NCBI GenBank assembly: GCA_951812855.1
Contig: OX638337.1
Location: forward strand, 480,001 to 512,000
DNA: 32,000 nucleotides
Source of the DNA: an uncultured Lentisphaeria bacterium
GTDB taxonomy: Bacteria; Verrucomicrobiota; Lentisphaeria; JABSQK01; JAJFLO01
Direction of reading: 5' to 3'
The notes beneath the pieces were generated by a model. It was given only the letters and a program-made list of their open reading frames with translations, did not search any database and was not told the DNA's origin. Numbering within the stretch: the stretch's first letter is position 1; every line of letters begins with the position of its first letter. This document shows positions 2,680 through 21,987 of this stretch, one piece after another. Made by a program: the position numbers and the translations under genes.

Positions 2680-3411
2680 TTACATACGATCAATTATTTT
2701 TATCAGGCTATGTAATACAAGGTTTGGTTCAACTAAATAATTTGATTTAAATTGATTGGAAATTAATTTTGAATTACCACCCGTCAATACGACATCTAAT
2801 GACTTCTGTAAATGTTTTTCATATTTTCCTATCCAGTTTTCTATGGCTAACACCGTTGAAAAATAGACCCCTTGCACAACAGAATCCTGAAGATTAACAG
2901 GATGATTAAAGACCGTCTCATATCCCGTGAAGGGGAATTCAGATTCAATCTCGATCCTCGTATTTTCAGATACAGCCTTTGCGGAAAGCTGCAAACCCGG
3001 CCAAATAATTGAATACTCACAGCTATTTTCGTTAACCAGAGAAACAGTCGTTGCGGTACCGAACGTTGCAACAACAAATGGCTGTACCAGCATTTCCTTT
3101 GCAGCAATACAGGCAAGTTTTCGATCTATGCCGATATCAAGATCAGCATTGAATCGTATCGTATCATCTGGCAACCAGTCTTGAACATCCAGAACCTGAA
3201 TCTGTCCAGAAGTATTTAATCTGGCACCATCAAAATCCGGCCGAACATTAGAATAGAGGAGTTGTGAAACGTCATAATGTGTCAGTATTTCTTGACAATC
3301 TGCCAGTGAATTACATTCAATTACAGATTTAAGTGTACGTGAATTTACATCAATAATTCCGAGTTTTATTACAGAATTTCCAATATCCAGAACCGCATTT
3401 TTTATAGTCAT
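2680..3411 (-). CDS. coaX: Type III pantothenate kinase (CoaX/Baf family)
   Basis: 243-aa ORF carrying the ordered CoaX motifs LDIGNS, GIDRKLACIAA, FGTATTV, IWPGLQLS, QDSVVQG and LTGGNS. It starts 7 nt after the stop of the upstream PPS-like gene. Confidence 0.85.
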   Translation of the reverse strand: MTIKNAVLDIGNSVIKLGIIDVNSRTLKSVIECNSLADCQEILTHYDVSQLLYSNVRPDFDGARLNTSGQIQVLDVQDWLPDDTIRFNADLDIGIDRKLACIAAKEMLVQPFVVATFGTATTVSLVNENSCEYSIIWPGLQLSAKAVSENTRIEIESEFPFTGYETVFNHPVNLQDSVVQGVYFSTVLAIENWIGKYEKHLQKSLDVVLTGGNSKLISNQFKSNYLVEPNLVLHSLIKIIDRM

Positions 3412-3418
3412 ATAGATT

Positions 3419-4180
3419 TTATCTAAGTGTTGAACGTAATGTTTTCAGTCTATTCTCGATATATTTTAATACTTGATTTCTGCTTTCACGTTTATCATAT
3501 GTCTGTAAAATACTGGTCGCCCGGGCAGGATTTTTATGCAATTCAACCATTGCCTCACTCAGTAACGGCAGTGCCCTGACAACATGATCACAAATATTTA
3601 CAGTCGCATCACAGGCCGTTCGTGAAAGGGGATTTAAATCAATTGATATCACTTTTTTCCCCCAATCCAACAGTGCACAGGTACGATCTCCATCTTCTAA
3701 TGGTATGAGAACAACATCCGCTGCTGCAATCCCATTTTTATCAACATGTGCACGTGCTGATGTCAAATGTGGAACCTTATCAGTCGGTGTAATGCCAAGT
3801 ACGTTTACCGCACCATGTTCTATTAGGAAATTAGCGATTTTTTGTTCTCTTTCACGGGTTCTCCCATAGAAGACATTTACTTCAAGTGGTGCAGGAATTG
3901 CCCTGGATAACTGAACAAGTGATTCGGGAGCTAAAACAGCCGTATTTCCATTAACGGAAATGACGGGATTGTCTGCTTGTACGAGCAATGCTGCAGCGAC
4001 ATTGATATCATTCTTGACACAGGGGATGGATTCTTCACCGAGGATATAGTCGAAGGCCTCACCACGACCATGGGCGATTGGTCCGGCACCGGCAACGAGA
4101 CCCAGGTCCCGATAAGTTTCAATAGTTGAGCGCATTTTAAGTGAATCAGCACGTGGATGGTTTATGGGTATTTCGTTCAC
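3419..4180 (-). CDS. Archaeal-type phosphopantothenate synthetase homolog (4-phosphopantoate--beta-alanine ligase; COG1701/DUF137 family)
   Basis: 253-aa ORF. I recognise the N-terminal signature NHPRADSL...GPIAHGRGEAFDYILGE from archaeal PPS proteins (recalled from memory, not searched). The size fits, and it appears to be co-transcribed with coaX. Confidence 0.72.
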   Translation of the reverse strand: MNEIPINHPRADSLKMRSTIETYRDLGLVAGAGPIAHGRGEAFDYILGEESIPCVKNDINVAAALLVQADNPVISVNGNTAVLAPESLVQLSRAIPAPLEVNVFYGRTREREQKIANFLIEHGAVNVLGITPTDKVPHLTSARAHVDKNGIAAADVVLIPLEDGDRTCALLDWGKKVISIDLNPLSRTACDATVNICDHVVRALPLLSEAMVELHKNPARATSILQTYDKRESRNQVLKYIENRLKTLRSTLR

Positions 4181-4607
4181 AGAATCGCTCTATTTCAAGA
4201 ATGTCAGTCATTTTCTGATGTTAGGAAACTGAAACCTGGATATACGAAAGACTGAAAATATAAAACCGGATTAAACGTTGATTATTGACTTCTTTCCTGC
4301 TTAATGTTTTCACAGCAAATATCGATCGAGTATGCCCATGATGGAACGCCTTGCAAACACCCCCTCATGACATCAGCCCCAAGCTCCTGAAAGAGCCGGA
4401 ATTAAAAAACTGCTCATTTTAGCCGTTTTTACAGTCTTATGATATAGTATCGCCAGATTTACAGATAGTATTGAACTATAGAATAACGCAGTTACACAAT
4501 ATAATTCAACTCAATATCAGCAGATTCATATATACTCTAAATCAGGGTTAAATCTGTAATCTGAACAGATAACATAATCCTTCATTTTTTTAATTTAAAT
4601 AGACACA

Positions 4608-5687
4608 GTGACATTTTATAAACCCAACTTAGGCAATCCGCCTTCAAGCAAACCAATCAATTTGAACAAAATTGACGTGAAAGGTGGAATTCTGATTCGA
4701 TCGACAAACTGGCTGGGAGATGCAATCATGACGCTTCCGGCGATTTATAAAATCAAACGGTCAATTGATAATCGGGGCAAGATTATTATTCTCACGACCG
4801 AGAAACTTAAATCATTCTGGGAAAGCGTTTCCTGGATTGATTACGTTATATCATTTCCCGGCAAGCGCATTGACCAGGCGTGTATACAGACAATCAAGGA
4901 ACTCAATCCGGGTCTGGGTATTATACTGCCAAATTCCTTTGGTTCGGCATTTGACCTGAATCGTGCTGGAATTCCTAAAATCATCGGCCGAACCGGCCGT
5001 GGCAGGTCGATATTTATCGATTATAAGCTGCCAGCCTGGAAACGAAGACCGGGAAGAGATATCTACCATGAAACACAAAAATATCTGGAATTTTCACATT
5101 TCCTCGGGAGTAAGGACTGGGATTGTGATTATCCTCCAATTTCTCCCAGGCTGTCCGCAACCGAATTGAACGAAATCAAATCAAGGGTCGCAACTGATAA
5201 ACCTTTACTGGTTGTAGCAGCCGGGGCAGCCTATGGTCCCGCGAAGCAATGGCCGGAACGGTATTTTATTGAAATCATAGAGTGGTGGACTCGAAGATAT
5301 GGAAACGCAGTTGTAATCGGGTCCGAATCAGAATTCCAGCTTGCAGATAACATTGTAAAAAGCATTCCCCGAACAATAAATCTTGCCGGTGAGACCTCCC
5401 TGGTGCAACTTATGTATATTCTCTCAATGGCGTCATGTATTGCAACAAATGACAGTGGTCCGATGCATTTAGGTGCAGCATTAGGTAAAAAAGGAGTTGC
5501 CATGTTCGGGTCGACAGATCCAATTGCAACCGGACCGATTGGAGGGGAATGGATTGTCCACTATAAAAAAACCAGTTGTTCGCCATGTCTCCAACGAACA
5601 TGTAAATTAGATAACCATAAATATAAATGTTTAGAAAAAATCTCTCCTGAAGAGATCATTTCAACAATTGAAAAACTAATTAAATAA
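4608..5687 (+). CDS. ADP-heptose:LPS heptosyltransferase (GT9, RfaF/WaaF-like)
   Basis: 359-aa ORF with a GTG start. It carries IRSTNWLGDAIMTLPA near the N-terminus and NDSGPMHLGAALGKKGVAMFGSTDP near the C-terminus, both typical GT9 heptosyltransferase blocks. Confidence 0.85.
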   Translation: MTFYKPNLGNPPSSKPINLNKIDVKGGILIRSTNWLGDAIMTLPAIYKIKRSIDNRGKIIILTTEKLKSFWESVSWIDYVISFPGKRIDQACIQTIKELNPGLGIILPNSFGSAFDLNRAGIPKIIGRTGRGRSIFIDYKLPAWKRRPGRDIYHETQKYLEFSHFLGSKDWDCDYPPISPRLSATELNEIKSRVATDKPLLVVAAGAAYGPAKQWPERYFIEIIEWWTRRYGNAVVIGSESEFQLADNIVKSIPRTINLAGETSLVQLMYILSMASCIATNDSGPMHLGAALGKKGVAMFGSTDPIATGPIGGEWIVHYKKTSCSPCLQRTCKLDNHKYKCLEKISPEEIISTIEKLIK

Positions 5688-21897: not shown

Positions 21898-21987
21898 GGA
21901 GGGGTGGTCGAGTGGTTTAAGGCAGCGGTCTTGAAAACCGCCGTGGGTTCACGCCCACCGAGGGTTCGAATCCCTCCCCCTCCGCCA
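21898..21987 (+). tRNA. tRNA-Ser (anticodon UGA), CCA encoded
   Basis: I folded the cloverleaf by hand. The acceptor stem is GGAGGGG/CCCCTCC and the anticodon stem-loop is GCGGT-CTTGAAA-ACCGC. The long variable arm is GTGGG-TTCA-CGCCCAC and the T arm is GAGGG-TTCGAAT-CCCTC, followed by a discriminator G and CCA. It is followed by a weak A/T hairpin (21994-22018) and a T-run (22024-22030). Confidence 0.9.

What the first reader, a model, noticed from the sequence alone, without database searches (positions are those of the whole stretch)
2680..4180. Archaeal-type phosphopantothenate synthetase homolog in an apparent operon with bacterial type III pantothenate kinase
ORF 3419-4180 carries the IAHGRGEAFDY signature that I associate with the archaeal COG1701/DUF137 enzyme, which ligates 4-phosphopantoate and beta-alanine. 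In archaea that enzyme works with pantoate kinase and replaces the bacterial PanC/PanK order of reactions. Here it ends 7 nt before a clear CoaX (PanK-III) gene. Two readings are possible. Either the COG1701 protein acts as a PanC-independent pantothenate synthetase feeding CoaX, or this divergent CoaX phosphorylates pantoate and the cell runs the archaeal reaction order with a bacterial kinase fold. Either would be a non-canonical bacterial route to 4'-phosphopantothenate.
Basis: partly seen in the sequence, partly recalled or inferred. Interest (0 to 1): 0.6.

Follow-up and report, generated by a model that had tools for sequence, protein, structure and literature searches.

The report
Hybrid bacterial route to phosphopantothenate
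A two-gene operon joins an archaeal-family phosphopantothenate synthetase to a rare, remodelled relative of the bacterial type III pantothenate kinase. In this bacterium the pair has replaced the usual PanC and CoaX steps of coenzyme A synthesis, and the kinase may be a new kind of pantoate kinase.

Summary
ORF 3419-4180(-) is a full-length PPS_PS protein (PF02006, 212 bits; about 50% identical to solved Thermococcus PPS). It ends 7 nt before ORF 2680-3411(-), a type III pantothenate kinase (CoaX) fold protein.

The 95.6%-complete genome has panB, a panE-like gene, coaBC and coaE. It has no panC, no coaA, no pantoate kinase (PoK) and no second CoaX, so this pair must turn pantoate into 4'-phosphopantothenate.

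Among 41 relatives, PPS and PanC never co-occur. A sister genus instead carries an overlapping PoK-PPS operon. PPS_PS was found in none of 400 other genomes of the phylum.

The PPS belongs to a bacterial clade that sat beside a CoaX gene in all 12 contexts examined. The kinase is not the lineage's native CoaX. It belongs to a rare subfamily of about 10 proteins. Every context I could examine is PPS-linked, and its substrate-pocket residues are remodelled.

I favour kinase-first chemistry, with an ASKHA-fold pantoate kinase feeding PPS (about 0.5). The rival is that the PPS homolog makes pantothenate for CoaX (about 0.33).

I found no description in the literature. This scan has flagged PPS+CoaX pairs on other DNA before (e1-1926020).

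The parts
3419..4180 (-). PPS-like gene (P0001, 253 aa, GTG start). It belongs to the bacterial CoaX-linked clade of the PPS_PS family.
   Evidence: PF02006 212.5 bits; NF010324 300 bits (cut-off 227); archaeal equivalog NF041123 262 bits, below its cut-off of 300. PDB 4mb0/3wdk E about 1e-60. It carries all 75 positions that are at least 90% conserved in both PPS clades, plus the clade signature P34, V55, D58, V103, G106, V136, W173, S179, N195, C197.
3412..3418 (-). 7-nt spacer between the PPS stop codon and the kinase start codon; the two genes are read as one operon.
   Evidence: Sequence read directly. The scan found no promoter-like or terminator-like site on the minus strand between the genes. 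The same-genus locus has an 8-nt gap.
2680..3411 (-). CoaX-fold kinase gene (P0002, 243 aa). It is a member of a rare PPS-associated subfamily of type III pantothenate kinase relatives and a candidate pantoate kinase.
   Evidence: PF03309 61.6 bits; TIGR00671 88.7 bits; all equivalog models below cut-off. Model pLDDT 89.9, and the best PDB matches are all PanK-III with TM 0.73-0.83. It sits in a separate clade with support 1.0, apart from the native CoaX of relatives. Signature residues are listed.
4181..4607 (.). Intergenic region between the PPS gene and a divergently oriented GT9 heptosyltransferase gene (4608-5687, +). This is the presumed promoter region of the pair.
   Evidence: ORF map and Pfam result for 4608-5687. 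The consensus scan found no sigma-70-like site on the minus strand here, so the promoter is inferred from position only.

Best explanation
The two genes form an operon that converts pantoate, beta-alanine and ATP into 4'-phosphopantothenate. In this genus the operon has replaced both PanC and the lineage's native CoaX. I favour the archaeal reaction order. In that order the CoaX-fold protein P0002 phosphorylates pantoate at the 4-hydroxyl, acting as an ASKHA-fold analogue of the GHMP-fold archaeal PoK. The PPS homolog P0001 then ligates 4-phosphopantoate to beta-alanine, and CoaBC takes the product onward. What is shown: family and fold membership, the gene pair, the absence of panC, coaA, PoK and a second CoaX, the complementary distribution with PanC in relatives, the foreign origin of the kinase, and its subfamily-specific residue changes. 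What is inferred: the substrates of both enzymes and therefore the order of the two steps.
For: (1) The genome is 95.6% complete in 3 contigs. It has panB, a panE-like gene, coaBC and coaE. It has no panC and no coaA. It has only one CoaX-family gene. Its only GHMP kinases are three mevalonate-pathway genes that score at most 19 bits on the PoK model.

(2) In 41 relatives, the five genomes with PPS all lack PanC, and 34 of the 36 without PPS have it.

(3) Genus g6, in the same order, has an overlapping PoK-PPS operon and no CoaX or PanC. A 'kinase plus PPS' operon has therefore replaced PanC plus CoaX twice in this order, each time with a different kinase fold.

(4) P0001 keeps every basic and acidic residue conserved in archaeal-type PPS. 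These include H8, R10, R17, H37, R39, R111, R143, R166, K175, R187 and R202. No conserved basic residue is relaxed in the bacterial clade (65, 78), which is what a retained phosphate-bearing substrate would predict.

(5) A basal branch of the bacterial clade still has archaeal-type pocket-adjacent residues (A58, V197, L234), yet its one examined member is already CoaX-linked with overlapping genes.

(6) P0002 is not derived from the native PVC CoaX. It sits on a long branch with about 10 relatives. All 7 subfamily contexts I could examine hold a clade-B PPS gene: adjacent in four, in the same CoA cluster in two, and on the same contig in one (contig-length matches in 14/58/88).

(7) The subfamily keeps the kinase machinery: D9, G11, N12, the GxDR motif with D96-R97, G118-T119 and G211-G212. 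It uniformly changes other residues. The substrate Thr becomes Leu/Ile (174). The Tyr 9 residues before the catalytic Asp becomes Phe (87). V57 becomes Arg. An Arg is gained at 152. The GG motif before PG is lost, with S at 134 and W at 137. N100 becomes Ala. The PHOSPHATE-2 Asp becomes Thr (116). A distal pocket that is filled and hydrophobic, together with new arginines, fits a shorter carboxylate substrate such as pantoate.
Against: In most other lineages the kinase next to this PPS clade is a canonical-looking CoaX. It scores about 300 bits on NF009855 (cut-off 233) and keeps the substrate Thr, the DRxxN Asn and the PHOSPHATE-2 Asp. That fits ordinary pantothenate phosphorylation, and it would make the PPS homolog a pantothenate synthetase. 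The core bacterial PPS clade has its own fixed signature right next to invariant catalytic motifs (A55V, A58D, M173W, A179S, T195N, V197C). This could reflect a change of acyl substrate from 4-phosphopantoate to pantoate. Cyanobacteria that carry the P0002-type kinase also carry PanC-Cmk in the same cluster (41, 66, 71), and PanC's product needs a pantothenate kinase. The roles I assign to pocket residues rest on UniProt-type annotations quoted in PMC11315101 and on my recollection of the PanK-III structure papers, which were not available. No biochemical data exist.
Confidence: 0.5

Rival explanations
1. Bacterial reaction order with a non-homologous synthetase. The PPS homolog has become a PanC-independent pantothenate synthetase (pantoate + beta-alanine gives pantothenate), and P0002 is a divergent but ordinary pantothenate kinase.
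For: Seven PPS-adjacent kinases from other lineages are canonical CoaX, and six of them pass an equivalog cut-off. Five of the seven keep the pantothenate-binding Thr, six keep the Asn, and all seven keep the PHOSPHATE-2 Asp. The core bacterial PPS clade has a fixed signature adjacent to the active site. It is shared by partners of both kinase types, which is consistent with a changed acyl substrate. P0002 keeps the GxDR Asp-Arg pair. Pfam and NCBI name the family 'phosphopantothenate/pantothenate synthetase'. From memory, that name reflects a 2008 report of pantothenate synthetase activity for the Methanosarcina mazei homolog. The cyanobacterial clusters place the P0002-type kinase next to PanC-Cmk.
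Against: No conserved basic residue of archaeal PPS is lost or relaxed in the bacterial clade. This reading does not explain the concerted pocket remodelling of the P0002 subfamily, including loss of the substrate Thr. It does not explain why that subfamily is strictly PPS-linked. Nor does it explain why the native CoaX was replaced along with PanC. From memory, characterised Thermococcus PPS does not use pantoate.
Confidence: 0.33
2. A promiscuous grid. Both enzymes accept phosphorylated and unphosphorylated substrates, so flux can run in either order. The canonical-type partner kinases would be bifunctional (pantothenate salvage plus pantoate), and the P0002 type would be a specialised offshoot.
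For: This reading reconciles two conflicting signals. The canonical partner kinases retain pantothenate-binding residues, and the PPS retains all of its basic residues. It also explains how a PPS gene acquired without PoK could be useful at once.
Against: There is no direct evidence. From memory, type III PanKs have an enclosed, specific pantothenate pocket. The strong remodelling of P0002 argues for specialisation rather than promiscuity in this genome.
Confidence: 0.1
3. P0002 is not the pathway kinase. It would be a pseudokinase or regulator, like Mycobacterium tuberculosis CoaX, and an unrecognised kinase elsewhere would supply 4-phosphopantoate or phosphorylate pantothenate.
For: M. tuberculosis CoaX is a pantothenate-binding pseudokinase that regulates PanB stability (PMC11626117). 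In P0002 the PHOSPHATE-2 Asp, annotated as the K+ ligand, is replaced by Thr.
Against: P0002 keeps the two glycine positions whose replacement inactivates the M. tuberculosis protein (G11 and G211/G212). It also keeps D9, N12, the catalytic D96 and G118-T119. No other PanK-I, CoaX or PoK candidate exists in a 95.6%-complete genome. The tight gene pairing recurs in several phyla.
Confidence: 0.05

Closest known systems
Archaeal PoK/PPS route (Thermococcus kodakarensis TK2141 + TK1686; PPS structures 3wdk/3wdl/3wdm and 4mb0/4mb2)
   Same: The PPS_PS family is the same, with about 50% identity over the full length and 75 shared conserved positions. The ligase is encoded next to a kinase gene. The pair takes the place of PanC plus PanK (pathway as described in PMC6650551).
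   Different: The partner kinase has the ASKHA/CoaX fold, not the GHMP fold of PoK. The PPS falls in a separate bacterial clade with its own 10-position signature, and it scores below the archaeal equivalog cut-off (262 bits against 300).
PoK + PPS in bacteria: sponge-associated Poribacteria (Thomes and Lescure 2020, PMC7883664). Genus g6 of this order also fits here.
   Same: These are bacteria that lack PanC and use a PPS homolog instead.
   Different: Those bacteria carry the complete archaeal pair with a GHMP PoK and have no type III PanK. Here PoK is absent and a CoaX-fold kinase is the partner. The paper states that no coexistence of elements of the two routes had been described.
Bacterial PanC + type III pantothenate kinase (CoaX; for example B. 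anthracis 2h3g, T. maritima 3bex, P. aeruginosa 2f9t)
   Same: P0002 has the same fold (TM 0.73-0.83). It keeps the PHOSPHATE-1 DxGN motif, the GxDR catalytic Asp-Arg, the GT of PHOSPHATE-2 and the GG adenosine motif.
   Different: PanC is absent. P0002 is only 18-24% identical to solved CoaX structures and fails all equivalog models. It lacks the PHOSPHATE-2 Asp, the DRxxN Asn, the substrate Thr and the GG before PG, and it gains R57 and R152.
Mycobacterium tuberculosis CoaX pseudokinase (PDB 9b78; PMC11626117)
   Same: Both are divergent CoaX paralogues encoded with pantothenate-pathway genes.
   Different: The inactivating Gly replacements of the M. tuberculosis protein are not present in P0002. 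In addition, P0002 is the only candidate kinase for an essential step in its genome.

Membership tests
PPS_PS (PF02006 / NCBIfam NF010324, phosphopantothenate/pantothenate synthetase) | Profile match above the curated cut-offs over the full length | tested here: met
   PF02006 212.5 bits against 26.4; NF010324 300 bits against 227.
PPS_PS (PF02006 / NCBIfam NF010324, phosphopantothenate/pantothenate synthetase) | Conserved motif residues shared with solved, characterised PPS (HGRGEAFDY, SVNGN, EDGDR, DLNPLSRT) | tested here: met
   75 positions are at least 90% conserved in both the archaeal-type and bacterial clades, and P0001 has all of them.
Archaeal 4-phosphopantoate--beta-alanine ligase equivalog (NF041123) | Score above the equivalog cut-off | tested here: not met
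   262.3 bits against a cut-off of 300. The PoK-linked homolog of genus g6 scores 298.9.
Archaeal 4-phosphopantoate--beta-alanine ligase equivalog (NF041123) | Uses 4-phosphopantoate rather than pantoate as acyl substrate | not testable with these tools
   Only indirect evidence is available. No conserved basic residue is lost, but the clade has its own signature next to the active site.
Archaeal PoK/PPS system | A GHMP-fold pantoate kinase (COG1829) in the genome | tested here: not met
   There are only three GHMP kinases, all in the mevalonate cluster. They score at most 19 bits on the PoK model, against 140 bits for the g6 PoK.
Type III pantothenate kinase (PF03309 / TIGR00671) | Profile match above the family or subfamily cut-off, plus the PanK-III fold | tested here: met
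   PF03309 61.6 bits against 24.7; TIGR00671 88.7 bits against 58.2. Model pLDDT is 89.9, and the top 20 PDB matches are all PanK-III with TM 0.73-0.83.
Type III pantothenate kinase (PF03309 / TIGR00671) | Match to any equivalog-level type III PanK model | tested here: not met
   The best equivalog score is 75 bits against a cut-off of 248. Native CoaX of relatives scores 95-147 bits on Pfam, against 61 here.
Type III pantothenate kinase (PF03309 / TIGR00671) | Catalytic and nucleotide motifs: DxGN(T/S), GxDR, GT of PHOSPHATE-2, GG | tested here: met
   D9, G11, N12, G94, D96, R97, G118, T119, G211 and G212 are conserved.
Type III pantothenate kinase (PF03309 / TIGR00671) | PHOSPHATE-2 Asp (annotated K+ ligand), substrate-binding Thr of the GxxT motif, and the DRxxN Asn | tested here: not met
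   T116, L174 and A100 in P0002. The same replacements occur in the other nine subfamily members (position 116 is Ala in P0130). They are confirmed by profile-profile alignment.
Bacterial PanC/PanK route | Pantoate--beta-alanine ligase PanC (PF02569) present | tested here: not met
   There is no match in the own genome, while 34 of 40 relatives have one with E about 1e-100.

The most novel reading that the evidence does not exclude
The P0002 subfamily is a dedicated pantoate kinase built on the CoaX (ASKHA) fold. That would be an independent, bacterial invention of the first step of the 'archaeal' reaction order. It would travel with a bacterial PPS clade as a mobile two-gene cassette that can displace PanC and native CoaX.
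Probability: 0.45. Interest if true: 0.75.

Novelty: new variant of a known kind. Interest (0 to 1): 0.62.

Why it matters
The order of the two steps from pantoate to 4'-phosphopantothenate has been treated as a bacteria/archaea marker. The only published bacterial exception I found uses the complete archaeal enzyme pair. Here a hybrid pair has demonstrably taken over the step: an archaeal-family ligase with a bacterial-fold kinase. The same PPS clade sits beside CoaX genes in several phyla.

One of two things must therefore be true. Either a CoaX-fold enzyme phosphorylates pantoate, or a PPS-fold enzyme makes pantothenate. Neither activity is established for these bacterial proteins, and both are directly testable with two small soluble proteins.

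The result affects genome-scale pathway calls, because such genomes look like pantothenate auxotrophs when scored on panC. It also bears on annotation of 'type III pantothenate kinase' genes and on views of how CoA biosynthesis was assembled by non-orthologous displacement.

Tried and rejected
1. Residue-level mapping onto ligand-bound structures. The PanK-III and PPS structure papers are not held, and no coordinates are available. Pocket roles therefore rest and on my recollection.

2. Testing whether the GNAT-PPS cyanobacteria also carry a standard cyanobacterial CoaX. The Lyngbya record is not searchable.

3. Signs of recent horizontal transfer. GC content across the pair (0.37-0.45) is within the local range of 0.32-0.46. 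The scan found no tRNA or other RNA family near the pair.

4. Promoter and terminator scan. There was no minus-strand promoter-like site. The only terminator-like hit lies inside the kinase gene, and counts were at or below the shuffled expectation.

5. A wider PPS distribution in the phylum. PPS_PS was found in none of 400 other genomes, so there were no further independent cases in the phylum.

6. Literature searches. I searched for PPS with CoaX, for 4-phosphopantoate with type III PanK, for COG1701/MM2281, and for Thaumarchaeota with pantoate kinase. None turned up a description of the hybrid.

7. A complex prediction of the two proteins was not run, because I make no claim that they bind each other.
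Full report
**What is in the sequence.** The minus strand carries two adjacent ORFs. ORF 3419-4180 (GTG start, 253 aa, P0001) contains IAHGRGEAFDY at residues 35-45. Its stop codon lies 7 nt before the ATG of ORF 2680-3411 (243 aa, P0002). Upstream lies a 427-bp intergenic region shared with a divergent GT9 heptosyltransferase gene. Downstream, the next gene converges on the pair. The two genes therefore look like a self-contained two-gene operon. The consensus promoter and terminator scan added nothing, and base composition is unremarkable.

**Family assignment.**
- P0001 scores 212.5 bits on Pfam PPS_PS and 300 bits on NCBIfam NF010324 (cut-off 227). It scores 262 bits on the archaeal equivalog NF041123, below the cut-off of 300.
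- P0001 aligns over its whole length with the solved PPS of Thermococcus onnurineus and T. kodakarensis, at E about 1e-60.
- P0002 passes the Pfam Pan_kinase and TIGR00671 cut-offs but is far below every equivalog model of type III pantothenate kinase.
- An AlphaFold model of P0002 (pLDDT 89.9) matches only PanK-III structures at the top of the list, with TM 0.73-0.83 and 18-24% identity.

**Genome context.** The window lies in a 2.05-Mb genome of 3 contigs, 95.6% complete. It is a diderm of the PVC group. The nearest public record is labelled a Verrucomicrobia MAG, and window genes include GT9 and LolA-like proteins.
- Present: panB, a panE-like gene (85), coaBC (20) and coaE (86).
- Not found: panC (9), coaA (19), panD (84) and any second CoaX (10).
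- Its only GHMP kinases are three adjacent mevalonate-pathway genes. They score at most 19 bits on the pantoate kinase model.

The organism makes pantoate and uses 4'-phosphopantothenate, so the P0001/P0002 pair is the only visible way between them.

**Relatives.** In 41 genomes of the same class, PPS_PS occurs in five. These are the window's genus g1 (2 genomes) and genus g6 (3 genomes). All five lack PanC, whereas 34 of the other 36 have it.
- Genus g6 also lacks any CoaX. It carries a GHMP kinase that scores 140 bits on the pantoate kinase model and overlaps its PPS gene by 4 nt. That is the full archaeal pair.
- Genus g1 has the PPS plus a CoaX-like gene that scores about 60 bits on Pfam. 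The native CoaX of PanC-bearing relatives, including members of the same family, scores 95-147 bits.
- In an even sample of 400 other genomes of the phylum (184 genera), PPS_PS was not found at all.

Two separate acquisitions in one order thus displaced PanC and the native CoaX, each bringing its own kinase.

**The PPS clade.** I built a tree of 122 PPS_PS proteins: the window's own, its 119 best database relatives and the two g6 proteins. It separates a bacterial clade of 46 sequences from the archaeal-type sequences, which include g6. The bacterial clade is P0001, P0004-P0047 and P0049. P0048 falls with the archaeal-type sequences, although the residue counts grouped it with the bacterial set.

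I looked at the contexts of twelve bacterial-clade members, and all twelve hold a Pan_kinase gene beside or near the PPS.
- In nine of them the Pan_kinase gene is immediately adjacent, in either gene order. These are the window, the same-genus MAG, five alphaproteobacterial-type loci and two others.
- A further locus, reached from a kinase hit, has panB, then the PPS, then an overlapping kinase gene.
- In two filamentous cyanobacteria, a PPS fused to a GNAT domain sits in a cluster with coaBC, a CoaX-like gene and PanC-Cmk.

Seventy-five positions are at least 90% conserved in both clades, including every conserved Arg, Lys and His. No basic residue that is conserved in archaeal-type PPS is relaxed in the bacterial clade. 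The core of the bacterial clade has its own fixed signature next to invariant motifs: L34P, A55V, A58D, L103V, an inserted G106, I136V, M173W, A179S, T195N and V197C. A basal branch keeps mostly archaeal-type residues, yet its one examined member (P0046) is already CoaX-linked.

**The kinase.** In a tree of 44 CoaX-family proteins, P0002 and seven relatives form a clade with support 1.0 on a long branch. The canonical PPS-linked CoaX proteins group next to it. Both groups lie apart from the 29 native PVC CoaX proteins. P0002 therefore came with the PPS and did not evolve from the resident gene.

A profile search of 5.8 billion proteins found only about ten members of this subfamily. Scores then drop sharply from at least 169 bits to at most 74 bits. 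That search depends on shared short words, so more distant members may be missed. Every member whose context could be read is PPS-linked.

The subfamily keeps D9, G11, N12, G94, D96, R97, G118, T119, G211 and G212. All ten members share K16, Y53, R57, F87, A100, C131, S134, W137, R152 and W193. Position 133 is aromatic or His and position 174 is Leu or Ile in all ten. Position 116 is Thr in nine and Ala in one. None of 15 other CoaX proteins compared has this combination. A profile-profile alignment confirms the key equivalences:
- R57 aligns with the conserved Val of the SVVP motif.
- A100 aligns with the Asn of DRxxN.
- T116 aligns with the PHOSPHATE-2 Asp.
- S134 and W137 replace the GG..A segment before PG.
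- L174 aligns with the Thr of the GxxT motif.

According to annotations quoted in PMC11315101 and my recollection of the UniProt/HAMAP features, that Asp binds the monovalent cation and that Thr binds the substrate. The two glycine positions whose replacement makes M. tuberculosis CoaX a pseudokinase are intact in P0002.

**Interpretation.** The pair certainly replaces PanC plus PanK as a unit. The open question is the order of the two steps.

Kinase-first (pantoate kinase, then PPS) is favoured by four observations:
- The PPS retains all of its charged residues.
- The basal bacterial PPS branch has archaeal-type residues, yet its one examined member already has a CoaX partner.
- Genus g6 shows a parallel PoK-PPS replacement.
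- The P0002 subfamily is strictly PPS-linked, and its pocket is remodelled. Loss of the distal polar ligands, bulky residues in place of glycines and two new arginines suit a shorter carboxylate substrate.

Synthetase-first is favoured by three observations:
- Most PPS-linked kinases are canonical CoaX proteins that retain the pantothenate-binding residues.
- The core bacterial PPS clade has a signature next to its active site.
- PanC is present next to the P0002-type kinase in cyanobacteria.

A coherent scenario is as follows. A resident CoaX with some activity on pantoate made an imported PPS useful, and the two genes became a cassette. Where another pantothenate kinase was available, the cassette kinase specialised into the P0002 type. 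Such a cassette then replaced PanC and CoaX in genus g1. I put kinase-first at about 0.5, synthetase-first at about 0.33, a promiscuous grid at about 0.1, and a non-kinase role for P0002 at about 0.05.

**Novelty.** Searches of the held literature found only the archaeal PoK/PPS work and the 2020 report of PoK plus PPS in Poribacteria. That report states that coexistence of elements of the two routes had not been described. Earlier notes of this scan had already flagged PPS+CoaX pairs in other genomes (e1-1926020, e1-1231938, e1-4477512), so the pairing as such is not new to the scan.

What this window adds:
- a clean case of displacement in a nearly closed genome;
- the contrast with a sister genus that took the PoK-PPS pair;
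- recognition that the kinase here belongs to a rare, specifically remodelled CoaX subfamily.

I class the finding as a new variant of a known kind of pathway.

Noticed in passing
G000:C1:1311200-1313283 (own genome, outside the window; loci L004-L006): Three adjacent GHMP-kinase genes form a mevalonate-pathway cluster: diphosphomevalonate decarboxylase plus two mevalonate-kinase-like genes. They are the only GHMP kinases in the genome, so no GHMP-type IspE, ThrB or GalK was detected.
   Followed up: partly
own genome (whole): No pyruvoyl aspartate decarboxylase PanD (PF02261) was found, so the source of beta-alanine for the pathway is unknown.
   Followed up: no
L045 / L053 10001-15185 and L055 132-5479 (filamentous cyanobacteria, e.g. 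Lyngbya aestuarii GCA_052546295.1): A PPS homolog fused to a C-terminal GNAT acetyltransferase-like domain lies in a cluster with coaBC, a P0002-type CoaX and a PanC-Cmk fusion. Elements of both routes therefore coexist there. The GNAT domain might sense CoA or acetyl-CoA, but that is speculation.
   Followed up: partly
L010 1480-3053 (genome G006, genus g6, same order): A GHMP pantoate-kinase-like gene overlaps a PPS gene by 4 nt, in genomes that lack both PanC and CoaX. This is a second, independent replacement of the bacterial route in the same order, this time by the full archaeal pair.
   Followed up: yes
L014-L043 (native CoaX of 29 relatives): All 29 native CoaX proteins of the PVC relatives have Asn instead of the first PHOSPHATE-1 Asp (NxGNT rather than DxGNT), and Asp follows the C-terminal GG (GGD). 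This looks like a lineage-specific CoaX variant.
   Followed up: no
L054 659-4664 (JGI metagenome 3300009514): panB lies 1.7 kb upstream of a PPS gene that overlaps a P0002-type kinase gene by 8 nt. PdxS/PdxT genes lie in between on the other strand.
   Followed up: partly
window 21898-21984 (+): An 87-nt tRNA gene is the only Rfam match in the window.
   Followed up: no
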